This document shows positions 41,239 through 63,199 of a stretch of 64,000 bases of DNA, in pieces. The DNA is from Schmidtea polychroa (lineage: Eukaryota). Position 1 is the first letter of the stretch. Every line of letters starts with the position of its first letter. The DNA lies in assembly GCA_044892525.1 (NCBI GenBank), contig CM097885.1, positions 4,342,001 through 4,406,000 on the forward strand, in the 5' to 3' direction. The notes under the pieces are model-generated. The model saw only the letters and a program-made list of their open reading frames with translations, had not been told where the DNA came from and made no database searches. The position numbers and the translations under genes are program-made.

Positions 41239-43050
41239 TCAATGAGAAATTTTCGGTAGCTTTGCATCGTTTACCAGTGTATCGATATCAATTTCAATGT
41301 TTGTGGTTGCCAAACGCAGTAAATTTGATAGCGATTTATCAGTCATGGAACTTCTATGCTTTGATTTAATAAACTTCATAGTGGAAAAAGTACTCTCACA
41401 AAGATAAGTACTGCCGAGCATTGATCCGATTTTAAGACCAAAGTCACGCAATTTGGGATATCTTACTTCGGATAATAGTTTGAAAAAGTCTTCCCCTGTT
41501 TCACATTTATTGGTAAACTGAGGATCAGTTTGCAACTCACATAATTCTAACTGCAAATCGGACGGCACATTTGCAATACTAATAGTTAAAGGCTGACTAA
41601 AAAGTAAAATTTCTCGTTCAAATTTTCCAAAATCGATAAATCGGCTTTCGAATTCCGCGATTATCCCATCAATATATTCCACATGAGTTAAAAATATTGT
41701 GACCTCGGAATTATTCATGTCTTCAAAATGCGCCTTGCAATTAGGGAAGAAAGTAAAATCATCATTGCTCAATGTTGATTTGAATAACTGCAATTTACTC
41801 TTGAAACCTTTGCAATAGCAATAAAGGTTTGCGATATTCTGCCCCTTACCTTGTAGTTTTAAGTTCAGTGCGTTTAAGTGGTTGGTCATGTCAGTTATAA
41901 ATGCAAGTTCAGCTAAAAATATAGGATCCTGCATTTGACGAGCAAGTTCTTCGGTATCAGACTTTACTTCATTTTGGAGGAATATTGGTATTTCTTTTCG
42001 TATAGCAAAAATACGTTCTAAACATTTTCCAGCACTCAGCCAGCGGATATCTGTGTGAAGTGTCAAATCTCCATATGCAGCATCCATTTCTTCTAAAAAA
42101 CTCCGAAACTTACGATGTGTGAGGGACCTGTTACCGCCTCGTATCATATTTGTTATTTTTATTGCTACTTTCATAGCATGGGCTTGTCGTAAATTTTTTC
42201 CGCACAGTGCTTCCTGGTGGATTATACAGTGCAGAGTTGGACATTTAATGTCATTTTTCTTCAATAATCCGCAAAAGCCAATTTCTGTTCCAATCATAGC
42301 TTTGGCCCCATCTGTAATAATACATGAACACCTATCGAATCCTCCATATAGCATAACATTTTTATGGACAGCTTCAAAAATGTCGCTCCCTTTGGTGGTG
42401 TCATACAGAGATTCTAGGCTAAGGAGCTCTTCGTTGACAGTGAAATCATTTTGAATAGTACGAACAAATATTAAAAGCTGGCTAATATCTGTCAAATCAA
42501 CGCTCTCATCCAAACACAGGGAAAAATATCTACATTTTCCCATCATTTGCAGCAGCTTTTTGGAAACATGTTGGTTCATATCATCCACTCTCCTGGCCAT
42601 GGTTTGATGAGATAATGCCACGGTGTTGAATTTTTCTGCTATTTTCGGCTCATTAAATTGTTTGGCCATTTCAATTGCACATTTCTTTATTAAAAGACCA
42701 TCACTATATGATTTCTTGGACTTTGCTAACTCCAATGCCACTGAATATGAAGCAGCAAGGCTTTCCGTTTCTGTAGTGTTAAGTTTCATAAAAAATGTTG
42801 TTTGGTGCATCACGTCTTTTTTATACTTTTCAATGATCGATGTTCTGGATTCTCCGATATACGAGTCAAATTTTTCGCTATGAAGTGATACATAGTGCCT
42901 TTTAACGTTATACTCCTTACACGCCGACAAAACTTGCATACAAATTATGCATTGAATTTTATTTTTATTGTTTATAATGAAATAGTCCGATTCCCACCTG
43001 ATATTGTACGTTCGATTTTCATTTTCGATTTTTCTTCTCTTCTCAGACAT
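41239..43050 (-). CDS. hAT (Buster-type) transposase, 603 aa, intact
   Basis: BED-like CIIC..KEYNVKRHY..H, LDESVD, TDGA, HCIIHQEAL, IRWLS, STYLCESTFS. Confidence 0.93.
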   Translation of the reverse strand: MSEKRRKIENENRTYNIRWESDYFIINNKNKIQCIICMQVLSACKEYNVKRHYVSLHSEKFDSYIGESRTSIIEKYKKDVMHQTTFFMKLNTTETESLAASYSVALELAKSKKSYSDGLLIKKCAIEMAKQFNEPKIAEKFNTVALSHQTMARRVDDMNQHVSKKLLQMMGKCRYFSLCLDESVDLTDISQLLIFVRTIQNDFTVNEELLSLESLYDTTKGSDIFEAVHKNVMLYGGFDRCSCIITDGAKAMIGTEIGFCGLLKKNDIKCPTLHCIIHQEALCGKNLRQAHAMKVAIKITNMIRGGNRSLTHRKFRSFLEEMDAAYGDLTLHTDIRWLSAGKCLERIFAIRKEIPIFLQNEVKSDTEELARQMQDPIFLAELAFITDMTNHLNALNLKLQGKGQNIANLYCYCKGFKSKLQLFKSTLSNDDFTFFPNCKAHFEDMNNSEVTIFLTHVEYIDGIIAEFESRFIDFGKFEREILLFSQPLTISIANVPSDLQLELCELQTDPQFTNKCETGEDFFKLLSEVRYPKLRDFGLKIGSMLGSTYLCESTFSTMKFIKSKHRSSMTDKSLSNLLRLATTNIEIDIDTLVNDAKLPKISH

Positions 43051-43368
43051 GGGTTTCTAAAAATAAAGAATACAAAGCTATTGTATGGCATTGTTAATAT
43101 CAGTATAATGGAATATAGTCTGAAATTAATTAATACTTGCGGTTATAATATTGATTATAGTTGAAAACAACCCCACACCCTCGTAATACATATTCCGCAT
43201 TTGTATATATATATAAATTACGCCAAATTTGACTGATTGTCTATTTTTTCTATTAACAAATTACTAAATATATCCCGGTTTGGGCGACCCATTCATTTTC
43301 GCCAAACATTAAAATAATAATATATGTGTTGTTATAATAATACAAATAAAATGTCCTATGAAGACACA

Positions 43369-47075: not shown

Positions 47076-48486
47076 GAGGGAGTGGTATGATTAAGGCTGA
47101 TGATTCTGATGAAGAAATGTTGCTGTCCATAGTTGATACAGATGAAGATTTGTTATATCATCCTCATTTTCCGAATGATGTTGATGATGGTTATCAATTA
47201 ATAAAATTTGTTTTCACTCTATTTTTAAATGTTACAAAATCTTTATTTTGTTAGTGTTACTTGTGAAATTACACTATTTTTATGTTGTTCTAGTATTTTT
47301 ATGTTACTTGTACACTATTTTTAATATCACACTAATTAGCACACATTTTAATTAAAGAATTAACTCATCTGCAATACTCACATACAAAGGTCACACACGA
47401 AGGTCAATGATTCACACACGCATGTTGTTTGCAATATAAATGCATTAATTTGATTGGTTATACACAAGTATAAAAGAGAGATGAAATGACATGATAGTCA
47501 TTATTTTTAAAAATGCAATCCAAGAAGAACGTTTTTGGTGAGAAAATAGTTTCTAATTTATTGAAAGAAACAAACCAATTGAGAAAATAACTGAGGCGAA
47601 GCATGTCAAGAATGATGTGAAACCAGTACAAATCATAACCATAAGATGTATTTCTTGGTAGATGAAATTCTATATAAATTCTCAAATGCAGTCAAATTGA
47701 TCAAGTCGCAATATTCAAGTTTCATAACACATATAACAAAAGATGTTGCTGCAGTAAATAAAGTGTTGTGGAAAATCAATAAGAATCTATGTTGTAATGG
47801 AAATATATTCATCAACAATCGAAATTCCCGTTTTCATGATGCCTTTGAAGAAATTGAAAATAATAGGGAAAGCTGGTTTGTAAGTATTTCAATACAGGGA
47901 TATAAAATGGATGAAAAAGATGTCATATCACCGATTTGGAGATTAGATAATGCTCGAATTTCTCTGGGATATTAATAAATGTTTAGTTTTTAATACATAT
48001 TTTAATATAATTTTTTAATATCATAATGGGATTTGTTAAGTATTTTTTAAAAGTTGAAAATGTGTGTATGTAAAAGTTGGCTAAAAAGGCATTGTTTAAG
48101 GTGTTATGATTATGAATTTGAAATAAATAATGATGTCATTTTGTAGAGATTTAAATTTTATCTATCGTTGGGCTGAGTCGAAAGCATGGCTAGGATAATA
48201 GGATAAGTAATATGATAAAAGAAAATAAACAAAAAATTTAAAATAAACTGGAATCAAGACACAAAAGAAATAATAAATTAAGATATAAGGGTTAAAACAA
48301 AAAATAAAAATAAGAAAATTAAGATAAGGAAAATAAAATAACGAATAAAATGACGTAAAATTCAGTAAATAATGAGGAAATTAGAGAAACAAATAAAAAA
48401 TATAATAAAAATAAGGAAAATAAGGAAAAATAACCAAAAAACAGAAAAAGTAAATTAAATTAGAAAAACCAAGCGGAACTCAATTC

Positions 48487-48617
48487 TGATTGGTCCGCAC
48501 AGATGAGAAATTAATATATAAGTAAGCACCAAAATCATTAAAATCACTGTTAACTCAAAAATTTTATAGGTAAGCAAATTTCGAAAATATCAGACTGTTA
48601 ACTCAAAAATTTTATAG
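48487..48617 (+). promoter_or_regulatory. E1 promoter (CCAAT, TATA) and 24-bp direct repeat bracketing a putative 48-nt intron
   Basis: ATTGG at 48489, TATATAAG at 48515, ACTGTTAACTCAAAAATTTTATAG at 48546 and 48594, AG|GTAAG donor. Confidence 0.6.
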
Positions 48618-49864
48618 ATCCAGAAACTAGCAGCGACATACAGACAACCGAAATTATTCAAGGAACAATCAGTATTAGGAATCAAGCGGACTATTTTCAA
48701 AAGCGTAACAAATTCATTTCGACTCAGCCCTCATATCGATAAACAATAGTAAGGAGATATTTGGTTTATGTATTTCAAGTAATCATGGATATTTGTTAGA
48801 TAATTAAAATTTCATTGCTTAATGCTAACTTTTTCTTCATTTGATCCTTTTAATAATTTTAATGAGGTTAATGATTTAAATGTTTAAATGCGATTTATAA
48901 CAATAAACGAGATACTCAGAAATTTTTATGGTTTTGATTCATGACATAATATTTTATGATTTAAATTTTTATGAGAAACGTGGAGTTGAGACGTTTCATG
49001 TCATGGTGTGAGGGGCCTTCGGGTGCTCAGCCGGTGGACATGAAACCTTTCAATCACGCAGTTGATTCGGGCCGTAATGTGGGGGCTTCCCCACGGGTCC
49101 GTCACTGAAGGTCACCTAAATTTATTCAGAACAGTAGAAGACAAGTATATAATAAATTCTAAATCGAAAGAAAAGTAATGTTCATGATTCACAGTGATTG
49201 AGGGAGCTACAATCTTTATGCCTACAAGGACTTTACAAACCATAAGCATCATAAGGTGAGTGCGTCAGATAATAACTGCCATGAGACACGTCACTCAAGC
49301 CTGTAGTTCTCAGATTTTTAGATAAAATATTTCGCCAATCAAGATAATTTGAACAGTCAACGGACGATTATAGTAGGCGATTAAAACTCTTTAAAGTCCA
49401 AATTTTAGAAATTTTAAATCGAGTATTACAAATAATAATCAAACTTAAATGGATTTATACATGCAATTCATTAAACCCTCATGTGCGAAAATCATCAAAT
49501 GGGAAAAGGGAAAGTTTTTGGGGAAATACACTGACCTACATATTGTTTTGATCTTAAATGTGTTTTAGTATTTTTAAGGGAAATTTAGAGGCTAATAATT
49601 TTTGCTCAATTACGAAATCTTCATGCTCAATGGTCAGTTATTGCATCCGTCAAGACAATATTACATGTTATTAATTAATTTTTTTTATAAATAATACACA
49701 AAGTAATAACGATTAATTGTCTGGGGGGATTTTCCTTATCCACCTCTCCTGTTTTCTTTTCTTGTTGAATATTCGAGATAGTAAATGAAAATTCGCGTCA
49801 AATTTATGTTTTTGTAAAAGTAGTATATTCTGTTTGTAATAGCTCTTCCTTATAGCCCTCAGAA

Positions 49865-50320
49865 ATGTTACCGAATAAAAGACCTGTGTTACGACCCTGT
49901 TTCTCGTGTTCAGACAAAAATTCCATCATCAAGGATTTGCAGGCCCAGATCGGTCGATACAAAAGGAAAATCGACGAACTGGATACTTCTTCCAAGTCAT
50001 CGCTTCACACCAAGAAGTCCTGTCGAGAATGTGTTGAGGCCGACCTCTCGCCTAAGCGTACAGACGTAATCTTCATCGGGACCAGTAAAGCGCTACCGCC
50101 TACTGCGTCCACCTCTGCAGCGCTCCCGAATATTCTGACGGTATCAAAACCTAAGCGACGGCAATTATCGAGGGCCGAACGCAAGAAAAAACAGCGGGAA
50201 CGAGTGACCGCCAAGCAGAATAAACAATCAACGGGCAACCCGGTTAACATCAGCAGTCCCTCCACAGTGATCGATTTAACAACAGGGATTCCAGGGCGTG
50301 TCATCTCCCTGTTGGCGTAA
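49865..50320 (+). CDS. E1 protein: CxxC + coiled coil + basic tract, unknown function, 151 aa
   Basis: GC-richer ORF; LRPCFSC.DKN shared with the 56732 ORF; KPKRR.L.R shared with the 59800 ORF; CAG lies 2 nt before the ATG; AATAAA at ~50526. Confidence 0.65.
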   Translation: MLPNKRPVLRPCFSCSDKNSIIKDLQAQIGRYKRKIDELDTSSKSSLHTKKSCRECVEADLSPKRTDVIFIGTSKALPPTASTSAALPNILTVSKPKRRQLSRAERKKKQRERVTAKQNKQSTGNPVNISSPSTVIDLTTGIPGRVISLLA

Positions 50321-50715
50321 CCTGGGAGGAGAATGCCTCAGAATTTTTCAATTTAGAAGAGCTCTTAGCTGACACAGAGTGGGAGAAATGAGAACCCCGC
50401 TGTGGAGTGATCTTATCTTTCACAAACTTTTGAACTGAACTATCAGTGTTTTCTTTACCATTCTTTTTATCATCAAAATATATCTGTTGAGTGTAAATTG
50501 TCCGTGTTTTGTGTCATAATCTTGGAATAAATCATTTTTTCGTTCTGATATATATTTACGAATTTTCCATAAATATTTACGAAAGCTTTCGAGATTCGGG
50601 GGGGGTGTTAACCAATTTATATCTATCGTAAGTATAGTGAAAGGTTTGATAATATGAATAGACGGAAGTCCTTCTATCGGCAGTCGAGAAAAGGAAGTCG
50701 AGGCCTCAGTAAGGA

Positions 50716-50860
50716 GTAGTCTTAAGGTAGGGGCTCACCTGCTTACTGGTGTCTCGTCGGCATAGTACATTTCCAACGTGAAGCAATTCACGGGTACTAT
50801 GTTGGAATATAGATTGTGCAGGGTTCTGCTCGGTGTTGGCGACGTAATAGCTAACATATT
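50716..50860 (+). ncRNA. Conserved structured RNA/DNA element, copy 1
   Basis: TCGGCATAGTAC / GTACTATGTTGG stem, 8-nt bulge ATTTCCAA, CGTGAA-GCAA-TTCACG hairpin; covaries with copies 2 and 3. Confidence 0.7.
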
Positions 50861-51975
50861 CGGAATGGACAATCATCTCTTGGACGAGCAGTTAAAATAG
50901 TTGAAGTCAACCGAGTGTTGGGCTAGAACTGATTTCTAGACCCAAACTTCTAATTGTGACTGAAATGTGTAGGTACACAACATGCAAAAAGCAGAAAGTA
51001 TAGTTAAATATTAAAAACTCTACACCAAATAACCAATATTAATTAAAGGAGAAAACAAGAAATTAAATAAAATTATTCAAAAGCAAGAAGTTATGCAAAA
51101 TAGAACTCATAAATAACCAAATAAACATAGAGTTACAAAGAACAGACTCGAATAACTTAAAAGACGGTAAAAACAGTAAAAATTCCAGAAAAACCCAGAA
51201 CATTCCATAAAAATGGCGATGACCATCACAAAAGCCATCTAGAACAATAAAATTTAGAAAAAATAAATAAATTAGTAATAAAAATAAAAAATTTTAAAAA
51301 GAAATTCATAAAACATCAGTTAAAATAAAAATTAAATTAAAATTAACATGGAATGCTCTGGAACCGTTCCAAATCCATCATGGACGTAAAATTAACGAAA
51401 AATAATTAAAAAATAAAAATATAAAAATAAAAACAAAAATTATGGCACAAAAATATCAAAATCGCAAAATAGAAAATTCTGGAATAAAAAGAATTCGAGT
51501 TTGTTTTAATGCACCAATACAAACACGTGTACAAAATAGGTATATATACCGATGCATTTCAGACACAATCAATTACTTTATGCTAATATTTTATTGAAAA
51601 ATTTTCTGAAGCAATTATCAGTGAGTATTTTCGAATTGTATAATGTTATGTTACTTATGCATATAATTATTTTAATGTCAATCATTTTTTCTTTTGCTTT
51701 TGATTAAATTAATTTTAAGAGTTGTTTTCCTATTTTAGTAAATACGACGGATCAGCGGCGTCTGAGCACGTCTCTGATCGGTCCTACATCTAATTATTAA
51801 ATCTCACATCTCATGCATACATGCATTATTATTATTTATAAAACTTTTGTTGTTCGGGTCAGTCGGAGGTCGAACTACTTCATGGTCCTGCCATGGAGTT
51901 ACGTCGAGGAAACCCTCCACCTGACTCTGACCTTTAAATCTGATCCAAATTCCACACCTTTTAAAAAAACTTATC

Positions 51976-52641
51976 ATGGCGAAAAAAATTGAATTATATA
52001 ACATTCGTGAGCACCGGGCAGAAATAGGCCTTAAAGATGTCAACAAATTAATCGAATTTGTCGATTTAGGACCTGGAGCGAAGCCGGCTAACGACCTCAA
52101 ATGCAGCTGGGACAGGCTCAGGTCGCAGTTGCGACAGCCATCTTCTTCGACAGCCAGGTACATCGACGGCCTCACCCGGGGGACGGCACGTCGATCACCC
52201 GATATGGACAAAAGATCCAGTATGCTACTGAGCATTACAAGCATGAATAGTAAGATTAAATTGATACGTTCCGATCTGGAACGTATATATAGCATACTGT
52301 TCGCTACAGAAATGGATCCCAACTATGAACTGGAGTTTGATGAGAATCAGGGAAACCATCAGATGGCCCAACTCAAAGACATGCCGCTACATCGAGAGTG
52401 TCCTGCTACAAACAAACCCCCCCCAACGAAAAGGGGAACGAGAATCGACAGAATGCACAAACGTCCGAATGAAACCCCACAAAGAAACCGGGATCGAAAG
52501 ATCAAGATAAAGGGTAACTCATACGTTCATTTAATTAACAGTGAAAGAAATTTTGTATCAAATGAAAAAAGCCCCATTATGACTATACTTCTAATGAAAA
52601 AAAGGTCAGCCGTAAATGGTCGACTTACAATACAACATTAA
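51976..52641 (+). CDS. Hypothetical protein in E3, 221 aa
   Basis: GC-richer ORF in an AT-rich context; no motif recognised. Confidence 0.4.
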   Translation: MAKKIELYNIREHRAEIGLKDVNKLIEFVDLGPGAKPANDLKCSWDRLRSQLRQPSSSTARYIDGLTRGTARRSPDMDKRSSMLLSITSMNSKIKLIRSDLERIYSILFATEMDPNYELEFDENQGNHQMAQLKDMPLHRECPATNKPPPTKRGTRIDRMHKRPNETPQRNRDRKIKIKGNSYVHLINSERNFVSNEKSPIMTILLMKKRSAVNGRLTIQH

Positions 52642-54249
52642 GGTTTGTCGTAGTGGTTCCAGTGGGGCCACGAAAGCAATATTCATAATTAATTTCAACA
52701 TTTAAAATCACAACAACAGTAATACCCTAAGGCTAATAAAATGAGTAGATCTCAGACCTAAATTTATCACAATTCACACTTGATATGGACGGTTGGATTC
52801 TTCAAAACTAACTCTGCCTATACATTGTCGAACATAGCTTCGGGAAATGACCCAAATAAAATTTCTGATAAAATAAAGATTTTCTTTAACGACTGACTCA
52901 GTAATAAGGACCCGATAGATGTATCGGCAGGGTTTGGATTTTGCATTAAATGAATCATAAAAGAAAAATACAAATAATAGACCCTTCAGAACATAAAATC
53001 CCATCTTAATTTCATCTTGAATTACGTTTATAGTTTTAGTTCCTTTTAAAGGGATGGTTATAGATAAATTCGCCGACAAGATATAAATTCCAAGTAGTTA
53101 CAAGTAAATTTTATTATAAATGTAGAAATAACTTATAACTATATGTCCATTTGAGTTATGCAGATATAAATTACACATTATTATAGATGAAATTTGCTTA
53201 TAAAATAGAAACTACCAATAGTTACATGTAAATTTTATAGAATATAAATAGTTGGATATAAAGTTTTAGTATAAATATGAATTATAAAGATAGAAAATAA
53301 ATTATAATCATGTATCAAGTTGATCATGACAATGTAAATTGTAATTAGTATGGATAAAGGTTGAATGCGAAAAGGTAAATTGTAAATCGTTAGATATAGA
53401 TTATAACGGCTAAATTTTAATTATAAAATCTAAATAGTAATTATAAGATATAAATATCAACCATAAAATCTAAATTCCGATTATGACATGTAAATTATAA
53501 ATATAAATTATAATTATAATCATAACTGATCATAATCAAGGTCTGATTCTAAAAGTATAAAATATAGATAGTTTATCTTTGGAAATATGCTGAGGATTGG
53601 GAATATGAGACCTTGTTAAATTATGGATTAAAAGAACCTATAGATTAAATATAAAGCGTGCCATGATCATCATTATATTTACTATTATGACTATTATTAG
53701 CATTACTATCATTATTAGCATTATTATTGTTATTATTATTGTTGGGCTAAATTTCGGAGTGGAGAAAGCTGGAGCGAATAGAAAAAATAATCCTCGAAAA
53801 ATAAATGAAATAGAAAAAAAAATAAATTACCATCAAAACTCAGTAGCAAATAGGAAGAAACAATAAACTACCAATAAAATAATAAGAATAAGTAACCAAA
53901 CTAAATAAAACCCAATAAATCCCTTAAGACTTGGACATAAAACAAAAAGGAAACGATTTACGACACACAGCAGCTAAAATAAGTAAAATTTAAGAAAATA
54001 AGCGGAAGAATTAGAGAAATAAAATAGAAATAAAACCGTTCTAAAATAAATGCAGATTAATTAAAACAAAAAATTTTTATATTATAGTAAAATAGCCATA
54101 ACTTCGCAAGGAAAAATAGGAAAAGTAATAAAAATAAGAAAATAAATAAAATAATAATAAGAACTAAGTTAAGTCATAAAAATTTAATATAGCATAATAA
54201 AAACATAAAAAATAGTAATAAATAACGAAATTACAAACGAGTCGTGTCC

Positions 54250-54369
54250 TGATTGGACGGAAAATAATATATAAAGAGCGAGAAAATCTGTAGAGTATCA
54301 TTCTAACCCGAAACTCTACAGGTAAAAATTTGTTCAAATTTTAATCATTCTAACCCGAAACTCTACAGG
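54250..54369 (+). promoter_or_regulatory. E2 promoter and 26-bp direct repeat bracketing a putative 47-nt intron
   Basis: TGATTGG at 54250, TATATAAA at 54268, ATCATTCTAACCCGAAACTCTACAGG at 54297 and 54344. Confidence 0.6.
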
Positions 54370-56731
54370 ACTCACTTAAGGACTAATTTTGCAGAGTGCG
54401 AACATTTTCTATAGACAACTAGTTAAGAAACTACGAGACCGAATCTAAGCAGAAAGTGCCGAGGACTTCAACGACATCTAGGATACCGATTAATTACTGT
54501 TCTATTCGACCCAGTTTTTGAACTTCGAGGTATGAAGTCGATTGTCATTATTGTTAATAATTGGTTATGAATATGTAAATTTAATTAATAGTAAAACCAA
54601 TTTTATTCAATAAATTTATTTCGGAAAGAACAGTAGCCTTTTCTTCATGGTACCGGCCACTGTACCATCTGGAGGTTCCAAGTGTGGTGTGGTCGAGCGA
54701 AAATATGCTATAAATGATTTTCCGAGTCTGCATTCCAACAAGGTAATAGACAGCGGACGTTTTCGAAAAAATAATGAAAGTTGGAAGAAATTTTCCGGTA
54801 CGATGGGATATGCGTCGGTATGGCTCGGGAGACATCATACTTGGAGCTCAAATGGTAGGGTCGCCGGGTAAATTTAATTGATTTATTTATTTAATTTTTG
54901 CATTAATGATTTATTTCTGATTTGATTTTTGAATTGATTGGGGAGACGAGTTGATTGGTCTCTCATGACGGTGCAAGAGCGGCGGCAGAGATGAATGCCG
55001 TTCTTGGGTGTGTCATGAGGGGTGAAGAAACTCAGTAGGTCGAAGTCTAGCTGAGGAGCGAAGTTCCCTTCACCGAGCGCGATCAGCCACCTTTGTCGTC
55101 GAGAACATATTCCATAACAAAAAGGGCAGCCACGAGGATGAACCCATAGAGAACTCCAAAAAATTTTCGAATTGAACCTTCTTAGCGCTATATCCAATCG
55201 TCGTCGATTGAGCTTGAAAGTCGGCATCTACTTCGTGCACTCCTCGAAAAAATTGTCACCTGAACATCTGATTGCTAGGGATCTGTAATTGTATGAAAAT
55301 TCCAACGAGGTTCGCAGGGAATGCCATAAAGTCTGAGCTCTTCTAGGATGTACATCGCCAAGGCGTTAGGGACTAGATCCGTTTTCTTAATGATTATCGG
55401 GTTTGAGTAAACTCGTCGCTCAATTTCGACAGAAGGATAAATATTTCTTAATCATTAATCAGAGTAATTACCGTAACATAAAACAAGTTAGTGACGATAT
55501 TGTCTAGTGGTCAGCTGTTCGTCTCCTCGTAGCTGGGAACTGTCTTCCGCAGATGTCTGGAAAAGTTTAGATAAGCTATCTAGCACATGAGTTGCGAGCG
55601 AAGGCCGTCGAGTAAATAAGCCCACTGTTCTTATCTCGATATCAGCATAGTAGTGGAAGACCTAATCAACCCACGCGGTAGTAGGAAATCACTTAGTTTT
55701 ATCTGTCCCGCTGAAGTCAATCAGAGATTTTGGACCAACTATACACGCCCGTATGAAGGCCAACATTTTGAGTAGAGAGTATGTCAATGCACACCTACAC
55801 CGGAATCGGGGAATGACACACAGAATAGCACATAAGCCCGTAGCTACAATCTCTAGCGGAAAGCACTAACTCATCAAATTCGAGGCATCCTTCATTCGTT
55901 ATAAATAATTTCTGTCGCAACGGTTGGTTACTAGAGATATGATAACAACTTCTGTAGAAATAAAGTACTAAAATGATTCGTTACCGTTTTAAAGAATTCA
56001 TCTGATTCATATACAACAAACTAAATTACGTAATCGACGGAAATTACCAGCAGTGTGTAGAGTAACAAATATAGAACAGGACCAAATTAAAAATGGAAGC
56101 ATAATTAGTTGGGTAAATTTGATAAACTAAGTACAGTGACGAATGAGATTCCAAAGAATTAACCCACAACGTGATTTTTAAAAAGGGGATGTTGTTTGAG
56201 ATAAAGTGACAAAATAGATTTTAAAAATAAGATTAATTGTACGATACACTCACGAGAAATCCGAATATTACTATGATGGGGTTGAAATAGATCAAACCGC
56301 AAGTAGCTGAATTTTGTGTTCAAGAATAACAGTAGATAGAACTCCAGACACCAATTAAAGACATAATCGGTTAAAAATATTTTGTTCAATCTTATCAATT
56401 GCATTTTACGTCACTAATAAGATCAAACACACTTTACCCTGTGGGAAAATAGCATTTCAAGTTAAGACTTAAAATGACCAGGCGTAAGAAGAGCAAGTCT
56501 AAAAGGTAAACCGACACTAAATGAATCATCCTGAGGTTTCCCCGATTTTCTTCTCCTAATGAGGCAGGGATTAGGTGGGTCGGTTTGAATGTTTGCGGGG
56601 AAATGAGTATGAATGTCGACAAATGGTTGTGAATGAGTGGAATGATTGATAAGGTGACGGAACTCATATTCAAAATTATAGATTTCGCGTAAATAATCTT
56701 ACTGATTCCCACATAATTTCTTGATTTCCAG

Positions 56732-57361
56732 ATGACTCCAACCAAATCCACCAAGGAACTTCGTCCGTGCTTCTCATGTGCAGATAAAAATGCCGACATA
56801 GCACAACTTCACCTATACATCGGGGCACTAAAGAAGAGAATCGATCTTTATGAGGGTACGTGGTTCTCCCCGCCACAAATGGAAGAGGAGCGGAGTAAGA
56901 TTCTTCGATTAGAACACTGCAGAGACAGCCTCCTGGAGGAGAGCCGCTGTCAAAGGCTGACCATTAAAGCCCAGTCCGAAGCCCTCCACAAGGTTTATAC
57001 GGAGGCGGAACTGGCCAAGCGGGTACGTGAGTTTCCAGTCTTGGAGAGCACAAATGTCTTCCCACTCCATCATCAAGTATCTCAATCAACTATAACCAAC
57101 TGCCAAGGGCATGGTTCATATCTACCACCCGTTCCGGCTCCAACATTATCGGGTTATCAACCATTGGTAGGTGGACCCACCGACCCTATCTTAGCTCCAA
57201 TCCTAGTGGCACCCGTCGTCTCCTCGAGCGCGGGAACTGTCATCTCGCAAACGGAAACGGCCAACCCGGGCCGAGAAAAATCAGAAACGCCGAGATGCGA
57301 TGGCCGCACTCGAAGCGTCACTATCTGCAGCCAAATCCACCATAAAAGAAATATCTTCTAG
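56732..57361 (+). CDS. E2 protein: CxxC + coiled coil with EGTWFSP motif, 209 aa (3' end possibly frameshifted into 57300-57485)
   Basis: ATG directly follows an acceptor-like TTTCCAG; homologous to the 49865 and 59572 ORFs. Confidence 0.65.
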   Translation: MTPTKSTKELRPCFSCADKNADIAQLHLYIGALKKRIDLYEGTWFSPPQMEEERSKILRLEHCRDSLLEESRCQRLTIKAQSEALHKVYTEAELAKRVREFPVLESTNVFPLHHQVSQSTITNCQGHGSYLPPVPAPTLSGYQPLVGGPTDPILAPILVAPVVSSSAGTVISQTETANPGREKSETPRCDGRTRSVTICSQIHHKRNIF

Positions 57362-57805
57362 CCACTCAATTCCCACTAAAGAAATCTTCCGTATAATTCC
57401 GGCAGAAGGCATTAAGTATATTTACAACCAACGATTGCCGGTCGATATCGACGAAATACTTGCGGACGGAGAACCCTTCGGTTAATCGATTCCAGTTTGC
57501 CTTGGTTTTCTGCAGGGTTCCGAAGCGAACTGGAATGTTTATAAATGCTGAACATTTGAATTTGACACAGTTCTTGGTTACTCTGAATGTAGTGATTTGT
57601 TATGGGCTTAATATATCTCTTATTGTTTCTGGTGATTGATTTTAACATGTGTGATATCGAAGTCAGTACGAACAAAAGGATGATGTCGGATGAAGGTAGT
57701 AAAACAAGGTCGTCCCCTTGGACCAGGGTCGGACTGAATTATGTACGAAGAACTGGGTAAGACCTCCTAAGGCGCCATGGAACCCGAAACGAGAAAGGGT
57801 TGGGA

Positions 57806-57985
57806 GTAGTCCTAAGGCAGGGGCTCACCTGCTAACCTTTTCCAACCCGTGTGAGCAGCAGCAACGTGGAACATCACCACGGGCTCATGCGTGGGAATAT
57901 GTACATGGTCATTTGGAGTATGTATGGGAAGTGTCTGAGCGGAACGATGATGCTTGGTATGTGTGATGGTAATGCGTGCATATTT
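57806..57985 (+). ncRNA. Conserved structured element, copy 2
   Basis: CGTGTGAGC / GCTCATGCG stem, bulge AGCAGCAA, CGTGG...CCACG hairpin. Confidence 0.7.
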
Positions 57986-59038
57986 TTCTCTTCCCCACAT
58001 ACGCCAACATTATTACTACTATCATCATTAGTATTATCGTTATTGTTACCCTTATTATCATCATCGTTACAACTATTACCATTATTAATTTTGTTACTAT
58101 TATTATATGATTAGTCTCCGAAAATAAAAATTTGATCAAAATATCGATTTAAGATTTCCCCCCATAACTAAATTTAGCACTAACCCCTTTACTCCAATAG
58201 GAATGATCATAATTCCTAAAATCTAATTTTAGTAACACCCCCTCCCAGAGAAAATGTTGGGATCATTTATCCTAAGCGAGAATATAGTAATCAAGCCCTT
58301 CGGGTTACTAAGAAGTGTACGAACCATCAATACATAAAATAATGTTGTCAATCTCGGTTAAATTATAAAAGTAGATTTTCTTAACATACAAAAGCATTAT
58401 TGCTTGGATCTTCAAATTTTAGCTTTAATAAACTGTAAGCACGAAATATTTATAATACAGGGAACGAATTTACCAGTGGGGAATCGTAGGACGACCCTCT
58501 AAAGCTAAAATAATTCATTTCCATCCAATCTTCTATCAATTATATCTAAAATTTAAAATTTAATGTTAATAGGCAAATTACCCAAAGGAGATTGTACCAC
58601 TCAGGACGAGCGCAACTGGAGGAGAGGTAAATAGACGAGAAGCTAGGCTCGCTACTAGTACCCGTCACCCCAGCGTGCCCGAATTTAGTGGCATAAGAAA
58701 TTTAATGATCTAAAACTTTAAAATTTTATAAATCCTAAATTAGAATTTATAAATTATAATGTAAATTACCACTTAGTGATAAACAAAATTTTATGGATTT
58801 AATTAATTAGTTAAAACAAACGGATTTTGGATAAAATTCCTTTTGCTATTCAGTTGATAAAATATGGAATTTCACTCCATTGTGCCTAAGATTTACCGAT
58901 TCCAGCCATAAAATGAGATTTATTGTTACTTATTTTTCTTCTTAAAGTTCCTGAAGAAAAAACAGGGGGTTAACAAAAGCCTAGGTTTAATTCATAACAA
59001 AATCGGTTTAAAGTGCCCTGATTACTATTTTTGCAGAA

Positions 59039-59404
59039 ATGTCCTACTCTGACAGCAGTAGTAACGAAGAAGCCGATCGACAATTGATCACCCGGCTCCG
59101 TACACGGTACATATGGTACCGTATCCACGATTGGAATCGTGGATTGGATCTCGACAACTTCGGTCCAGTTATCCGAAGCGGCCCAGAACCTGATGCCCCG
59201 GCGTGGGTAAAAACAGAGCCATCGAACGATTCGTTGCAGGAGGCCCGCGACCGAGCGGCCTTCGAGGTAGATGCAGCCCAGATGCGATTGAGGAAAATCG
59301 ACTTGCAAATCCGGGCAAACAAGGAAGGGAAAACCGTAGAGGACCTAGAAGAGGCCGAGTCAACCCCGCGGAAGAGGGGAAGGCCTCGCAAGTGTCCGAC
59401 CTGA
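59039..59404 (+). CDS. E3 small protein with C-terminal AT-hook, 121 aa
   Basis: RKRGRPRK at the C-terminus; acceptor-like TTTTTGCAG 2 nt before the ATG; AATAAA at ~59489. Confidence 0.6.
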   Translation: MSYSDSSSNEEADRQLITRLRTRYIWYRIHDWNRGLDLDNFGPVIRSGPEPDAPAWVKTEPSNDSLQEARDRAAFEVDAAQMRLRKIDLQIRANKEGKTVEDLEEAESTPRKRGRPRKCPT

Positions 59405-59571
59405 CTCATTGTCGATTCTTTTCGTAAATATCATCAGCCACGACTTAATTGAACTTTAATTTTAGTGATGGATTATTTTACTCCTTTTAATAAATTATCT
59501 TATGAATTGCGTGTTTATTATCTAAAAATATCGTTATGTGTAATATTGACCTTATTATATAAATTGAATGA

Positions 59572-60039
59572 GTGGTATGCTACAAGAAGGTAATCATTGA
59601 ATTTTGTCTAGTGTTCAAACTATTTGAAAATCTACGAAAGGACAGAGAAGAAGCCCAAAAACAGGCCGAGGAGCTCCGCGTACGAGTGGACAAGCTCAAA
59701 GGGAGGTGCCGGGAACTCGAAGGCACCTGGTTCAGTCCCGAGGACATGAAAAAGGTAGCGTAGGTCCTCCAACTACAGACTCAAGCCACGCAGGATCAGA
59801 TGGAGATCCGGGCACTGAAGCTCCAACTCCGCGCGTTAGAAACCGAGCGCAATGAGCAAGTGGTTCACGGGGCCGCAATCAGCCAAATCCGGCCGTTGAC
59901 CGTGGAGTTAGCAGCAATATACCCTCCGGCCGTGAAAGAGAAACCCAAAAGAAAGCGTTTGGGACGGAACATCCGGGAAAAATTAAAGAAGGCTAGATTA
60001 GCCGAGTATGAGCGACAAGAAAGGTCGACATCAACGTAA
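59572..60039 (+). pseudogene. E3 coiled-coil EGTWFSP protein with an in-frame TAG at 59761
   Basis: ORFs 59572 and 59800 are in the same frame; EGTWFSP and KPKRKRLGR motifs are shared with the E2 and E1 proteins. Confidence 0.6.
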
Positions 60040-60245
60040 TTTCAGTAAAAAGAACAGTCACTGAGGCCATATACTTTGAATTTTTTTTTGTTGTTTATTG
60101 TCATTGTGTAATTACAAACGTAGTTAAATTAATGTCTGAGGCATGTTGTTTACAAATATTGAGTGACTGAAAATTGGCGTGTGGAAATTTTGGGAAAACA
60201 ATGTTGGTAAGGGACCTGAGGAAAATCGGACACAAACCTTCAACG

Positions 60246-60411
60246 GTAGTCCGTGAACCCATCGAGTGCTCGATAATTATAGTGCCTTGGTGCGCTCACT
60301 TTTTGCGAGCACTTAACCCTTGGTACAGTACCAACGTTGATTACTCAACGGGTACCAAGCGGAAAGACACATGTTGTATTTTGGGTTACGCTGGTAACAG
60401 CACTGAATAAC
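60246..60411 (+). ncRNA. Conserved structured element, copy 3
   Basis: CTTGGTAC / GTACCAAG stem, bulge AGTACCAA, CGTTGA-TTAC-TCAACG hairpin, downstream GCTG-GTAA-CAGC. Confidence 0.7.
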
Positions 60412-60959
60412 AAATATCCGACCACCTGTAACCCACCACGAGTAGCACCCCAGCACTATATATTGTTTGAGTGAAAATATCTCAAGGTGTTTAAAAAATG
60501 TGTAAATTCAAAAATAGTGCACTAAAAATGAAATATCACAATTTTGATTACGGCAGTCTCATTTAAAAGAGAATGAAATATAATCAACGATTTAAAAATA
60601 AAATTTTTTAAAAAAATTAAGTGTCCAAAAATTTTTTTAAAAAGTAGGGGGGGGGTATCAGATGCCCAAAAAAACTTGGTGAGAGTCGAGGATTCCTGTT
60701 GGGCTGGAGTCCACACAACTACCTACTACAACAATTCACTGAATGAATAATTTTGGAGCTGCATGTATTTAAGGTTGAAACCAGAAAAACAGGACGATGT
60801 TAAGAAAAGGTATTTAACTTGTTCAATTTGTAAAGAAAATCAAGTTTCGGTTTTGTTTTTGTTTCTACCGTGTATTGAACAAAAATACCTTTTCTTAACA
60901 TCGTTCAGTTTAATGGACTAAGATTTTTATTTTATAATTTAATTTATTGATTAGTTTTA

Positions 60960-61290
60960 TTCAGGTTTGCCAAATTGGTACTCAATTATTGGGAAACCAA
61001 TTTCTTGGATTTTATTCAATGGATAAAATTCCATATTTGAGAAATAATCAAGCCATAATCGTCAATACTCATACATTTAGTTTAGGAGGTGAACATTGGA
61101 TTGCTATATATGTGAAACCAAACCGAGTATATATTTTTATATGCATTCGATCTCTTTGGATATTATTACCCAAATTTATTAATTAATAAATTACAAACTA
61201 TTGCTAAACTTATTGTATATAATCAAACTCGGTATTAACATCCATTTTCAATTATGTGTGGCCAACATTATCTTGCATGGTTGTTATCAA
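60960..61290 (+). pseudogene. Adenain-like (Polinton) cysteine protease, degenerate
   Basis: FLGFYSMD..IIVNT....GEHWIAIYV, FDLFG, LCGQH; paralogous to the 36728 fragment. Confidence 0.72.
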
Positions 61291-63199
61291 TGTATAATTT
61301 TTTTTAATAAATTTTATTGCCAAAAATGTCGTGTTATTTTATTATTTTATAAATATTATCATTTTTAACGTCTTTGTTATCTTATGTACATATACGCGGT
61401 GAGTGATATACATACCTACAATGTGAGTGTGTTCCTCGATTCTGACTAGTTCGTGAATAATAAACGTCATATATAACTATGTTTTTCATTTTTTCATCAC
61501 TTTTAAACAACATGCAAAATATCTCAAGTGATATCAAGAAAATGATTCGAAGAAACCGTATGGGTAATTTTTTCAAATATGTTTCTATTTTTATTTATAT
61601 TTTAGTCTACAATGATGGAATTAATCGAAATAATGTTTCCGGAATTTATGGTAAATTTATTTTTTTAATTATTATTATTATGATTTTTTAGTAAGTAATG
61701 GAACCGAAAATGATGGGAATAATGCAGTGCCAATCTCGGGTGCAAGAAGCCAAAATGTAAGTTTTTATAAAATTTATCAAAGTAATTTTTATGAAATTAA
61801 TTTTTATGGAAATAATAATGTTGAAAATGTTTTTATGAAGAAAATTACTATATAACCAATTGTCAAGATATTATTAAGAAATTATTATGAAATTATTATG
61901 TTTTATGAAAATATTATTATTACTATTATAATTATTTTTATAGGTTATAAATATCCAACTTTTTGTAACAGTGCTACACATCATGACTGTAACGATATTA
62001 TTGTCATAAATATAAAAGTGTAACATACTTGTTATGTCCTATATACGAAACTCTTGATAAACAACATAATCATTTAACCCAATGTATGCCTTCTAAAAAA
62101 TCAGTTTTCCAAATTGCTTATTAAAAATATATATCAATAACATAAACCACTAATAGGAACACCGAAAAAAGTACTAACTTACAAAATCGATCATTAATGG
62201 AAACAGTCAATAGATTAATTAAAAGACATTTAGAAATTCCCACAAAAAAGATGAAAGAAATAATAATCATTAGTGATGACGACGTTGTAAATAATGAAAC
62301 TATAGCAATTAGTGATGACAACGATATTGTAAATAAAGAAATTGTTGTACCCCAAGTAGTTAGTGGTATAGTCGACGTAGTTTCTGACCGGAATAGTTCC
62401 CATGTAATAGTTAGGATGGACATATCATCCTCGAATTGTGAAGTTCTTTCTGTTCCTGTCGTTCTCATAAAAAAGTTGTTAGAAGTTGTAAATAAAATGA
62501 AATCACTAAAAATTCAATTTTGTATTAGAGTTTGAGAAAAATGATGAATTTCAGTATTTCATAATATCAAACTCTGCTCGTGTTTGGAGCAACACGTTTA
62601 TTGATGATGGTATCTCTCTTTTAGATGAGAAAATTAGTAAGATAGATGAAATTGAACTAGGATTATATCTTGATGAATCTTTATCAGAAAGATATGAATT
62701 ACTTCCATGTCGACTGATATATGTAGAATATAGGAATGATTCAGAAATTCTCAATGATGAATATGTAACAGACGGAGAATTTGACAAATCTCATATAGAT
62801 TTTCTATTTGGTTTATATTTAAAATTATATTCGTTTGTATTGTATTTTCCACTAATTCCGTAGCTATTTTTATATGTTTGTTCTCAAGTTGGTCTTGAAT
62901 AAGATTTACTTGTATTATACTTCGACGGATACGAAGATTCGTAATTTCGAATCATTGAATTGCTTGTTGAGGTACCGTAATTATGCAACATATTATTAAC
63001 ATTCTTCTCCAAATTCGTAAAAAAAAAGTAACACGTTTTTAAATCAATGTTCTGAAATAATATATGTAAATAAGATTGAATTTAGTATCTGGCATTTTGC
63101 TATTCAATGTATAAATGCTTATAAAATAGAGAAATCAACCTTGCCAAATTTATCTATTATTCTAACAATTTATCAAATTTCTAAAAGACAATTTCTGCA

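What the first reader, a model, noticed from the sequence alone, without database searches (positions are those of the whole stretch)
50716..60411. Strongly covarying stem / 8-nt bulge / hairpin RNA motif near the 3' end of all three elements
Seen at 50757-50805, 57848-57891 and 60319-60359. The lower stem has a different sequence in each copy but stays paired (CATAGTAC/GTACTATG, GTGTGAGC/GCTCATGC, CTTGGTAC/GTACCAAG). An exactly 8-nt 5' bulge ANNNSCAA sits opposite a single G. The upper stem always opens CGT...ACG (GCAA tetraloop in E1). Upstream are a conserved GTAGTC and a stem enclosing GCTCAC; downstream is a hairpin with GTAA in the loop. G-U pairs favour function as + strand RNA. Inference: a selected cis-acting RNA such as a packaging/dimerisation signal, priming element or unclassified ribozyme. 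The geometry recalls the hepadnaviral epsilon element, and the bulge/stem junction CAAC matches the element terminus CCAACA; that link is speculative.
Basis: partly seen in the sequence, partly recalled or inferred. Interest (0 to 1): 0.85.

Follow-up and report, generated by a model that had tools for sequence, protein, structure and literature searches.

The report
Conserved RNA hairpins in giant-retroelement LTRs
The three "elements" are nested solo long terminal repeats of giant gypsy-type endogenous retroviruses, and the stem-bulge-hairpin is a real, strongly conserved RNA fold near the end of each repeat, whose exact job in the retroelement's life cycle is still unknown.

Summary
The motif is real. 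It sits at 50761-50801, 57849-57890 and 60319-60359. Each copy folds as described: an 8-bp lower stem, an 8-nt bulge ANNNCCAA, an upper hairpin, and one unpaired G. A loose pattern finds 6,460 copies in the genome against 3 for its reversed control. In all 59 distinct sequences among the first 100 hits, the 9 base pairs the pattern leaves free are paired in 92.3% of cells, and all 9 show double changes. G-U outnumbers A-C 31 to 4, which points to the sense strand. Rfam has no match.

The three "elements" are solo LTRs nested in one another (TG..CA ends, 4-bp duplications). Full relatives are 14-30 kb Ty3/gypsy-type proviruses with a tRNA-Pro primer site, gag, a Monjiviricetes-type glycoprotein domain, PR-RT-RH-IN and ankyrin repeats.

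The motif lies 79-127 nt before the LTR end. It is preceded by a second covarying hairpin and followed by an A/T-rich box and a G/T-rich stretch. It is most likely a cis-acting element of the genomic RNA, in R next to the poly(A) signal. The epsilon-like priming and ribozyme readings are not supported. It is a new member of a known kind.

The parts
48166..50915 (+). Solo LTR 'E1', main part. It starts CGTTGGGC (TG mutated to CG) and carries internal deletions relative to other copies. Target duplication is CTAT at 48162-48165 and 60456-60459.
   Evidence: The 5' boundary is shared with 4 other copies. 23 of 26 family copies end in CCAGCA.
60443..60455 (+). Last 13 nt of solo LTR E1 (TAGCACCCCAGCA). 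They are separated from the rest by the nested E3 insertion. 60439-60442 is the duplicated CGAG.
   Evidence: The window row matches the family 3' end once the insertion is skipped.
50916..53739 (+). Solo LTR 'E3', left part (starts TGTTGGGCTAGAAC). It is inserted in E1 with target duplication CGAG (50912-50915 and 60439-60442).
   Evidence: The same 5' end is seen inserted in another E1-type copy, L034.
58014..60438 (+). Solo LTR 'E3', right part. It ends GTAACCCACCA.
   Evidence: Similarity stops there in 16 of 16 copies. 15 read CCCACCA and one reads CCCACCG.
53740..58009 (+). Solo LTR 'E2' (4,270 bp, TGTTGGGCTAAATTTC...CGCCAACA). It is inserted in E3 with target duplication TTAT (53736-53739 and 58010-58013).
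   Evidence: (16 of 16 copies end in CCAACA). Its start is homologous to both LTRs of a 30.5-kb full element.
50761..50801 (+). Hairpin B (the reported motif), E1 copy.
57849..57890 (+). Hairpin B, E2 copy.
60319..60359 (+). Hairpin B, E3 copy.
50703..50752 (+). Hairpin A, E1 copy. The outer helix is CAGUAAG/CUUACUG and the inner helix is AGUCUU/GGGGCU. An E1-specific small hairpin follows at about 50745-50759.
57794..57841 (+). Hairpin A, E2 copy.
60264..60314 (+). Hairpin A, E3 copy. The outer helix GAGUGCUCG/CGAGCACU covaries within the family (G-C against A-U).
50806..50840 (+). A/T-rich box (AATATA) followed by a G/T-rich stretch, just 3' of hairpin B. It is a candidate poly(A) signal with downstream element, or alternatively a TATA-like box. 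The equivalents are at 57896-57935 and 60362-60390.
   Evidence: A+T is 0.69-0.81 at +5..+12. G+T peaks at 0.69-0.89 within +13..+36, in the first half for E1 and E3 and in the second half for E2 and the other families. This is inference from sequence only.
49856..50320 (+). Remnant of an LTR-embedded ORF. It is about 250 aa in fuller copies, with a coiled-coil-like N-terminal part and a basic KPKRRQLSRAERKKKQRER stretch. Related ORF pieces lie at 56717-57361 (E2) and at 59012-59404 and 59764-60039 (E3).
   Evidence: No Pfam family and no homologue were found.

Best explanation
The motif is the second of two adjacent, evolutionarily maintained RNA hairpins (A and B, about 110-130 nt together). 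They lie in the 3' part of the LTRs of a large group of Ty3/gypsy-type endogenous retroviruses, and the window holds three nested solo LTRs of this group.

Shown:
- The units have LTR identity.
- The fold is kept by compensatory changes across many families.
- It is kept on the sense strand.
- It ends 79-127 nt before the LTR end, and so the same distance plus a 7-8-nt spacer before the tRNA-Pro primer-binding site in the 5' LTRs examined.
- An A/T-rich box and then a G/T-rich stretch follow it.

Inferred: the domain is transcribed as part of the genomic RNA and acts in cis. My preferred placement (about 0.55) is that hairpins A and B make up most of R, that the A/T box is the poly(A) signal, and that the G/T stretch opens U5. 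Hairpin B would then stand at both ends of the genomic RNA. There it could organise 3'-end formation at the 3' LTR and give R the structure used in first-strand transfer and in building the initiation complex near the PBS. The invariant bulge A...CCAA and the flanking C and GGG would be a recognition surface for a protein (Gag/NC, RT or a host factor) or for an RNA partner.
For: LTR identity:
- Termini are TGTTGGG...CCA(A/G/C)CA, with 4-bp target duplications in the window (CTAT, CGAG, TTAT) and elsewhere (GTAT, ATTG, CTAC, TTTA).
- A 30.5-kb element has 4.2-kb LTRs that are 99.5% alike over the 432 nt compared.
- An element with 13.9-kb LTR spacing has 1,644-bp LTRs that are 99.94% alike.
- The PBS TGGGGGCTCAGCCGGGAT lies 7-8 nt after the LTR in four families. 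It matches the 3' end of a tRNA-Pro(TGG) gene of this genome.
- Protein domains are Retrotrans_gag with zf-CCHC, then RVP, RVT_1, RNase H and integrase.

Structure:
- Alignment A2: 48 copies, 96.0% paired, 11 of 14 pairs with double changes, 0 of 500 shuffles reach this.
- Unselected genome sample: 6,460 pattern hits against 3 for the control. All 59 distinct sequences among the first 100 hits give 92.3% pairing over the 9 pairs the pattern leaves free. All 9 pairs show double changes, and slid controls give 27-44%.
- Hairpin A: 97.7% paired, 9 of 17 pairs with double changes.
- Both hairpins persist in the minimum-energy fold of a 327-nt stretch that runs through the PBS.

Strand: 31 G-U cells against 4 A-C cells.

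Placement:
- A+T is 0.69-0.81 at +5..+12. G+T then peaks at 0.69-0.89 within +13..+36, in the first or the second half of that span depending on the family.
- Boxes read TATAAA, AATATA and TTTAAA in some families.
- Animal Metaviridae LTRs are described as having a poly(A) motif followed by a GT-rich stretch that opens U5 (PMC3601003, passages seen).
- The implied U5 of about 55-100 nt is of ordinary size. That last point rests on my own knowledge.
Against: - No RNA data could be used to place the transcription start or the poly(A) site. The R placement is inference only.
- The A/T box is a poor poly(A) hexamer in E2 (AATATG), E3 (GAAAAC/GAAAGA) and E5.
- In some families the box reads like a TATA box (TATAAAG). 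A second A/T-rich box (AATAAA in one family) lies about 30-40 nt before the LTR end. That fits the rival U3 placement.
- The last 80-120 nt (U5 in my model) are less conserved between families than the hairpins, which is unusual for U5.
- The fold was tested in only one genome.
- Copies are related by descent, so cell counts overstate the number of independent events. Even so, at least a dozen different lower-stem pairings occur.
Confidence: 0.6

Rival explanations
1. The same structured RNA lies in U3, directly upstream of a TATA-like box. It would then be present only in the 3' untranslated end of the genomic RNA. There it could serve nuclear export, stability or packaging, or act as the 3' half of a 5'-3' bridged initiation complex as in yeast Ty3.
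For: - The A/T box 5-12 nt after the hairpin reads TATAAAG, TTTAAAT or CTATAAAT in some families (loose ends, 53, 86).
- A second A/T-rich box (AATAAA in one family) lies 30-40 nt before the LTR end in E1, E3, E4 and the 13.9-kb family.
- Ty3 keeps part of its primer-binding site in U3 (PMC5371799, passages).
Against: - E2 and E5 lack the second A/T box.
- R plus U5 would be only about 60-90 nt, with a U5 of about 15 nt.
- A G/T-rich stretch between TATA and the start site has no known role.
- The TATA-like reading is absent in E3 and E5.
Confidence: 0.3
2. The domain is an extended docking scaffold for the primer tRNA-Pro. The bulge CCAA would pair with the anticodon loop UUGG, GGGGCUCA of hairpin A with the acceptor 3' strand, GAACCCG upstream with the T arm, and UACCCCUA in some families with the D loop.
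For: - All four complementarities exist.
- CCA is the codon read by the UGG anticodon.
- All four families in which a 5' LTR junction was read use the tRNA-Pro PBS.
- Ty1 and Ty3 use such extended contacts (PMC5371799).
Against: - The stretches are short (4-10 nt) and mostly not longer than in shuffles. The longest match is reached in 44/300, 60/300, 145/300, 43/300 and 45/300 shuffles. Only E5 stands out, at 2/300.
- GAACCC is deleted in the E1 family.
- GGGGCUCA would compete with the PBS for the same tRNA bases, and it is itself paired within hairpin A.
- The comparison was made post hoc.
Confidence: 0.12
3. It is a protein-response element of the TAR, RexRE or RRE type. An element-encoded basic protein would bind it, for example the roughly 250-aa coiled-coil and arginine/lysine-rich ORF embedded in the long LTRs.
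For: - The stem, bulge, stem geometry has an invariant bulge.
- LTR ORFs with a shared basic stretch occur in the E1, E2 and E3 families.
- An invertebrate Ty3/gypsy-type element, Cer1, needs its own accessory protein for genomic RNA export (PMC10309623, abstract).
Against: - The 1,644-bp LTR of the 13.9-kb family keeps the motif but has no sense-strand ORF of 70 aa or more.
- The ORF has no recognisable family or relatives.
Confidence: 0.1
4. It is a self-cleaving ribozyme or a hepadnavirus-epsilon-like protein-priming signal.
For: Only the geometry (bulged hairpin) and the CAAC resemblance to one family's terminus.
Against: - No Rfam ribozyme or other family matches, even at E up to 10.
- A cleaving R or U3 element would cut the genomic RNA.
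- tRNA-Pro priming is evident.
- Termini differ between families (CCAACA, CCAGCA, CCACCA) while the bulge stays CCAAC.
- Pfam finds ordinary RT, RNase H and integrase and no terminal-protein domain.
Confidence: 0.03
5. It is a DNA-level feature (a palindromic factor-binding site or cruciform in the promoter) or plain shared descent without selection for pairing.
For: It lies close to a possible TATA box, and the copies are related by descent.
Against: - Stem sequences differ freely while complementarity is kept. This is not what a sequence-specific DNA site needs.
- The 31-to-4 excess of G-U over A-C is strand-specific.
- Intermediates with G-U and fully compensated forms occur within single families.
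Confidence: 0.03

Closest known systems
Retroviral R-region hairpins (HIV-1 TAR and poly(A) hairpin; HTLV-1 Rex-response element). Named from my own knowledge, not from a call.
   Same: They are bulged stem-loops inside the LTR, close to the poly(A) signal. They are kept by covariation and act in cis on the genomic RNA.
   Different: There is no sequence or Rfam similarity. Here the bulge is 8 nt with invariant CCAA, and the host element is a Ty3/gypsy-type provirus of an invertebrate-type genome. The position in R and any protein partner are unproven.
Bipartite or extended primer-binding sites of yeast Ty3 and Ty1 (PMC5371799, passages seen).
   Same: These are LTR-retroelement RNAs with LTR segments complementary to arms of the primer tRNA. 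Ty3 belongs to the same superfamily.
   Different: Here the PBS itself is a full 18-23 nt next to U5. The extra complementarities are short and not significant against shuffles.
General architecture of animal Metaviridae LTRs (PMC3601003, abstract and passages).
   Same: Inverted ends TGTTRNR...YNYAACA, an A/T-rich poly(A) motif followed by a GT-rich stretch, and a less conserved TATA region.
   Different: In the passages I saw, that work describes linear motifs. I saw no two-hairpin domain of this kind there, and I did not read the whole text. The LTRs here are unusually long (1.6-5.2 kb).
Hepadnaviral epsilon. Named from my own knowledge.
   Same: Lower stem, bulge, upper stem and loop.
   Different: Epsilon's bulge templates a protein-linked primer. 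Here priming is by tRNA-Pro, and the bulge does not covary with any acceptor site.

Membership tests
LTR of a Ty3/gypsy (Metaviridae) retroelement | Short inverted ends TG...CA | tested here: met
   The 5' end is TGTTGGGC in E2 and E3 and CGTTGGGC in E1. The 3' ends are CCAACA, CCACCA and CCAGCA.
LTR of a Ty3/gypsy (Metaviridae) retroelement | Target-site duplication of 4-6 bp | tested here: met
   4 bp at all three window units (CTAT, CGAG, TTAT) and at four other copies (GTAT, ATTG, CTAC, TTTA). One copy, c119, showed none. Its 5' flank is the internal sequence of a full element.
LTR of a Ty3/gypsy (Metaviridae) retroelement | Two direct copies flanking an internal gag-pol region in full elements | tested here: met
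   In the 30.5-kb element the LTR starts are 99.5% alike over the 432 nt compared. In the 13.9-kb-spacing element the LTRs are 99.94% alike over 1,645 nt. The window copies themselves are solo.
LTR of a Ty3/gypsy (Metaviridae) retroelement | Primer-binding site complementary to a tRNA 3' end just after the 5' LTR | tested here: met
   TGGGGGCTCAGCCGGGAT (extended by TTGAA in the E3 type) lies 7-8 nt after the LTR. It is the complement of the tRNA-Pro(TGG) 3' end plus CCA.
LTR of a Ty3/gypsy (Metaviridae) retroelement | Polypurine tract before the 3' LTR | tested here: inconclusive
   A conserved sequence ...CGGGNCCCGGAGTGATT precedes the 3' LTR in two families, but it is not a clean purine run.
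LTR of a Ty3/gypsy (Metaviridae) retroelement | Pol domain order PR-RT-RNase H-IN | tested here: met
   In the 3,016-aa part of the ORF, RVP is at 791-882, RVT_1 at 1104-1262, RT_RNaseH at 1350-1454, and Integrase_H2C2 and rve at 1562-1734.
Any Rfam family (including all curated ribozyme classes and retroviral cis elements) | Score at or above the family's gathering threshold | tested here: not met
   There are 0 matches in the 64-kb window. At E up to 10, nothing overlaps the window copies. In another family's LTR the only overlap is a 12.8-bit SNORD74 match on the opposite strand (gathering score 41).
Hepadnavirus epsilon-type priming signal | Bulge sequence templates a primer that matches an acceptor site, and the two covary | tested here: not met
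   The bulge is CCAAC in all families while the termini read CCAACA, CCAGCA or CCACCA.
Hepadnavirus epsilon-type priming signal | Polymerase with a terminal-protein domain and no tRNA primer site | tested here: not met
   Pfam lists no such domain, and a tRNA-Pro PBS is present.
Retroviral R-region hairpin (TAR or poly(A)-hairpin type) | Lies between the transcription start and the poly(A) site (R) | not testable with these tools
   Only assembled contigs of runs of uncertain type were available. The sequence context (A/T box, then G/T stretch) is compatible with R.
Retroviral R-region hairpin (TAR or poly(A)-hairpin type) | Structure kept by compensatory change on the sense strand | tested here: met

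The most novel reading that the evidence does not exclude
These giant invertebrate-type gypsy proviruses may be 'complex' retroviruses in the HIV/HTLV sense. The invariant-bulge hairpin would be a response element bound by an element-encoded arginine-rich coiled-coil protein (the ORF embedded in the long LTRs, or another accessory product). That binding would control export, polyadenylation or packaging of a genomic RNA of 14-30 kb. In addition, or instead, the CCA bulge could read the anticodon of the primer tRNA-Pro, whose gene this genome carries in more than 1,300 tandem copies.
Probability: 0.1. Interest if true: 0.8.

Novelty: new member of a known kind. Interest (0 to 1): 0.5.

Why it matters
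Structured cis-acting RNAs are well mapped in vertebrate retroviruses and in yeast Ty elements, but they are hardly mapped in the very diverse gypsy-type proviruses of invertebrates.

This is a compact two-hairpin domain with textbook covariation, thousands of natural variants in one genome, and no Rfam family. It is ready material for a new RNA family. It is also a practical marker for finding and orienting the LTRs of this group, and a handle on how retroelements with 14-30 kb RNAs manage polyadenylation, strand transfer, priming or packaging.

The report also corrects the annotation of the locus. What looked like three small protein-coding elements are nested solo LTRs.

Tried and rejected
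1. RNA evidence. The run search listed no RNA holder. The four runs laid were assembled contigs of uncertain type. They cannot show starts, ends or strand. One run of guessed RNA type had contigs only over the last few hundred bases of the LTRs. I draw nothing from this. Contigs of two of the four runs, those with cover there, do confirm that 57861 G is private to the window copy (all contigs there read C).
2. A covariance-model search of the whole genome was not possible. An IUPAC pattern was used instead.
3. I searched for truncated copies carrying an A-tail 20-50 nt after the hairpin, as a trace of the poly(A) site. There were 0 matches and 0 in the control, so this is uninformative.
4. The LTR-embedded ORF was searched with Pfam (only sub-threshold hits), a protein search of 138-441 aa (395 candidates, none significant) and the protein atlas (best score 0.85, lead level only). 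Nothing usable came out.
5. I first read the units as about 1.7-kb and then about 3.7-kb non-autonomous elements, and considered HDV-like agents, Penelope-like, DIRS-like, Ginger-type and Helitron readings. I dropped these once TG..CA ends, 4-bp duplications, PBS and paired LTRs around gag-pol were seen.
6. Complementarity to tRNA-Pro was found, but it is not significant against shuffles except in one family.
7. Earlier findings of this scan: three look-ups, nothing.
8. Literature. Three full-text searches found no description of this motif or of these elements among the papers listed. That is not proof that none exists.
9. Other species could not be examined. The genome has no relatives in the held collection.

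Full report
**What is in the window.** The cores are at 50761-50801, 57849-57890 and 60319-60359. Each core has an 8-bp lower stem and an 8-nt 5' bulge (ATTTCCAA, AGCAGCAA, AGTACCAA). Above that is an upper hairpin opening CGU...ACG, then one unpaired G, then the 3' strand of the lower stem. RNAfold gives this fold as the minimum for each isolated core. The z-scores against dinucleotide shuffles are -4.57, -0.99 and -2.73. On the opposite strand the E2 copy folds differently. Rfam has nothing: 0 matches at gathering score in the whole window. Six matches at E up to 10 lie in 48000-62000, all with E of 1.7 or more, and none overlaps a copy.

**What the 'three elements' are.** Each unit belongs to a large repeat family of the window's own 781-Mb genome. 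First-look candidates number 874-1,395 for E1, 1,159 for E2 and 2,853 for E3, with 40 scored each time. Comparing copies fixed the boundaries.
- The E2 family ends at ...CGCCAACA in 16 of 16 copies, and similarity stops there.
- In the E3 family, similarity stops after ...GTAACCCACCA in 16 of 16 copies. Fifteen read CCCACCA and one reads CCCACCG.
- The E1 family ends ...GAGTAGYRCCCCAGCA in 23 of 26 copies. One is interrupted by an insertion and two are divergent.
- All start TGTTGGGC.

The window units are nested.
- E2 is 53740-58009, flanked by TTAT. It sits inside E3.
- E3 is 50916-53739 plus 58014-60438, flanked by CGAG. It sits inside E1.
- E1 is 48166-50915 plus 60443-60455, flanked by CTAT.

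Other copies have 4-bp duplications GTAT, ATTG and CTAC.

**They are LTRs.** Three copies were followed by TGATTTT TGGGGGCTCAG(C/T)CGGGAT. E2-like copies also occur as same-strand pairs about 26.3 kb apart. One such pair was examined on contig 3.
- After the upstream copy come the PBS-like sequence, an ORF with a RING finger (PF13920), and then a single open frame of at least 4,731 aa running through two adjoining loci.
- That frame carries Retrotrans_gag and zf-CCHC.
- Further on it carries a Monjiviricetes_fusion glycoprotein domain (E 2.4e-70), RVP, RVT_1, RT_RNaseH, Integrase_H2C2 with rve, and ankyrin repeats.
- Both repeats start TGTTGGGCTAAATTTC and are 99.5% alike over the 432 nt compared. 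They are homologous to the start of the window's E2.
- LTR length is about 4.2 kb and the element about 30.5 kb.

A second family has LTRs of 1,644 bp that are 99.94% alike, spaced 13.9 kb apart. It has a TTTA duplication, the same PBS, and the same sequence before the 3' LTR.

The PBS is the complement of the 3' end (plus CCA) of a tRNA-Pro(TGG) gene of this genome. In E3-type copies the match extends to 23 nt.

The window therefore holds three solo LTRs of Ty3/gypsy-type proviruses, not three small coding elements.

**Is the fold selected?** I aligned 48 different copies from seven lower-stem types, using loci fetched for other reasons. Of 672 cells, 96.0% form standard pairs and 11 of 14 pairs show changes on both sides. 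No shuffle out of 500 reaches the observed pairing or covariation score, and slid partners give 25.7-44.2%.

I then made a test free of my own choice of copies. The genome was searched with a pattern that fixes only the bulge ends, the first three and last three positions of the upper stem, and the C-G pair closing the lower stem. It also bars A at the first base of the 5' strand of the lower stem and T at the last base of its 3' strand.
- It matched 6,460 times (3,169 plus 3,291), against 3 for the pattern read backwards.
- I took every distinct sequence among the first 100 listed matches (59, with none dropped) and counted only the 9 pairs that the pattern leaves free.
- Of 531 cells, 92.3% are paired and all 9 pairs show double changes. 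No shuffle out of 500 reaches the observed pairing or covariation score.
- Slid controls give 26.9-44.3%.

Lower stems in that list include CATAGCAC/GTGCTATG, CATAATAC/GTATTATG, CATGACAC/GTGTCATG, TTGTGTAC/GTACACAA, CTTGATAC/GTATCAAG, GTGTGGGC/GCCCATGC and CGTGGTAC/GTGCCACG. The second upper-stem pair switches between G-C and A-U. Within single families, G-U intermediates and fully compensated states coexist.

G-U or U-G cells number 31 against 4 A-C or C-A cells.

Copies are related by descent, so the counts are not independent events. The variety of stems still makes chance or mere inheritance untenable.

**A second hairpin.** Upstream lies hairpin A. Its outer helix differs between families: CAGUAAG/CUUACUG in E1, AAAGGGUUAG/CUAACCUUUU in E2, a 9-bp helix in E3 that covaries within the family, and an 11-bp helix in E5. 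Next come a 2-bp step and an inner helix in which (G)UAGUCC pairs with GGGGCU, closed by a hexaloop.

On 33 copies, 97.7% of 558 cells pair and 9 of 17 pairs show double changes. No shuffle out of 500 reaches the observed pairing or covariation score. This structure was predicted on the same alignment, so the slid control is lenient.

It therefore has no covariation support.

The downstream 'GTAA' hairpin is not conserved. Both hairpins persist in the minimum-energy fold of a 327-nt stretch through the PBS.

RNAalifold also proposes a near-equivalent local variant for hairpin B, in which CC of the bulge pairs with GG. All these bases are invariant, so covariation cannot decide between the two.

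**Where it lies in the LTR.** Hairpin B ends 127 nt (E1), 119 nt (E2), 79 nt (E3) and 110 nt (13.9-kb family) before the LTR end. The roughly 170-250 nt that contain the two hairpins are the only part of these 1.6-5.2-kb LTRs that aligns between families.

Directly after hairpin B comes an A/T-rich box. A+T is 0.69-0.81 at +5..+12, and the box reads AATATA, TATAAA or TTTAAA in some families. A G/T-rich stretch follows, with G+T peaking at 0.69-0.89 within +13..+36. The peak falls in the first half of that span in E1 and E3 and in the second half in E2 and the other families.

Animal Metaviridae LTRs have been described as carrying the inverted ends TGTTRNR...YNYAACA, a poly(A) motif, a GT-rich stretch that opens U5, and a weaker TATA region (PMC3601003, abstract and passages). 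On that basis I place hairpins A and B in R, with the box as poly(A) signal and a U5 of about 55-100 nt. This is inference, at about 0.55.

The rival, at about 0.3, is that the box is a TATA box and that the domain is the last part of U3. A second A/T box 30-40 nt before the LTR end would then be the poly(A) signal (AATAAA in one family). That second box is missing in E2 and E5.

**How it most likely works.** Shown: this is a sense-strand structure conserved across many families of one retroelement group, at a fixed place near the LTR end and the PBS. Inferred: it acts in cis on the genomic RNA.
- If it lies in R, it is present at both RNA ends. It could organise 3'-end formation next to the poly(A) signal and provide the structured R used in first-strand transfer and in assembling the initiation complex.
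- The invariant A...CCAA bulge with the flanking C and GGG looks like a recognition surface.
- Short complementarities to the primer tRNA-Pro exist: CCAA to the anticodon loop, GGGGCUCA to the acceptor strand, GAACCCG to the T arm, and UACCCCUA to the D loop in some families. They recall the extended primer contacts of Ty1 and Ty3 (PMC5371799, passages).
- These complementarities are no longer than in shuffles, except in one family. GAACCC is deleted in the E1 family.
- A protein-response role, with the basic coiled-coil ORF embedded in the long LTRs or another accessory product, is possible. Cer1 of C. elegans needs its own protein for genomic RNA export (PMC10309623, abstract). However, the 1,644-bp LTR keeps the motif without any sense ORF of 70 aa or more.
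- The epsilon-like and ribozyme readings have nothing in their favour beyond geometry.

**Comparison with what is known, and novelty.** The units pass the tests for LTRs of a Ty3/gypsy element: ends, duplication, paired copies, PBS and domain order. Only the polypurine tract is unclear. The RNA domain belongs to no Rfam family. Three full-text searches listed no paper describing it. It works like the cis-acting hairpins of retroviral LTRs, so I rate it a new member of a known kind.

**Limits.** Only one genome was examined. No usable RNA data were available. The function is untested. Supplements of the cited papers were not read.

Noticed in passing
L076 and L077 (genome contig 3, about 124.865-124.883 Mb, minus strand): One uninterrupted frame of at least 4,731 aa holds gag, a Monjiviricetes-type (chuvirus/rhabdovirus-like) fusion glycoprotein domain (E 2.4e-70) lying before the protease, then RT, RNase H and integrase, then ankyrin repeats. 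A separate RING-finger ORF lies between the PBS and gag. One survey said it found no clear capture of such glycoproteins by Gypsy elements (PMC10084718, passages), so this in-frame arrangement may be worth its own report.
   Followed up: partly
L080 (genome contig 1, about 130.90-130.97 Mb and beyond): This is a tandem array with a 475-bp period of tRNA-Pro(TGG) genes. There are 1,347 exact matches to a 25-nt 3' part of the tRNA in the genome, and 4 genes within the 3 kb read. This is the very tRNA that primes these retroelements.
   Followed up: partly
window 49856-50320, 56717-57485, 59012-60039 and 51931-52641; fuller copies in L015 and L013: Sense-strand ORFs are embedded in the long LTRs. 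They reach about 250 aa in fuller copies, with a shared N-terminal RPCFSC..DKN..coiled-coil part and a basic KPKR..L.RAERKKKQRER stretch. They have no Pfam family and no relatives.
   Followed up: partly
window 41239-43056 (-): A 605-aa open frame of a hAT-type transposase carries a Spin-doc/BED-like zinc finger and a hAT dimerisation domain. A similar hAT ORF pair lies inside another provirus copy.
   Followed up: no
window 48157-48183 and 48717-48743: A 27-nt inverted repeat (81% complementary) joins the very 5' end of the E1 LTR, including a few flanking bases, to a site 560 nt inside it. Its meaning is unknown.
   Followed up: no
LTR 5' ends (48166, 50916, 53740) versus the PBS: The first 15 nt of E1-type LTRs (TGTTGGGCTGAGTCG) resemble the PBS (GGGGCTCAGTCGG) with one change. 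Hairpin A also carries GGGGCTCA, identical to part of the PBS. This could be coincidence or a trace of how these LTRs arose.
   Followed up: no
genome contig 1, first 15 Mb (listing): Among the first 100 motif hits, at least 12 same-strand pairs with identical motif sequence lie 13.7-31.5 kb apart. Full-length proviruses of several size classes therefore seem common in this genome.
   Followed up: partly
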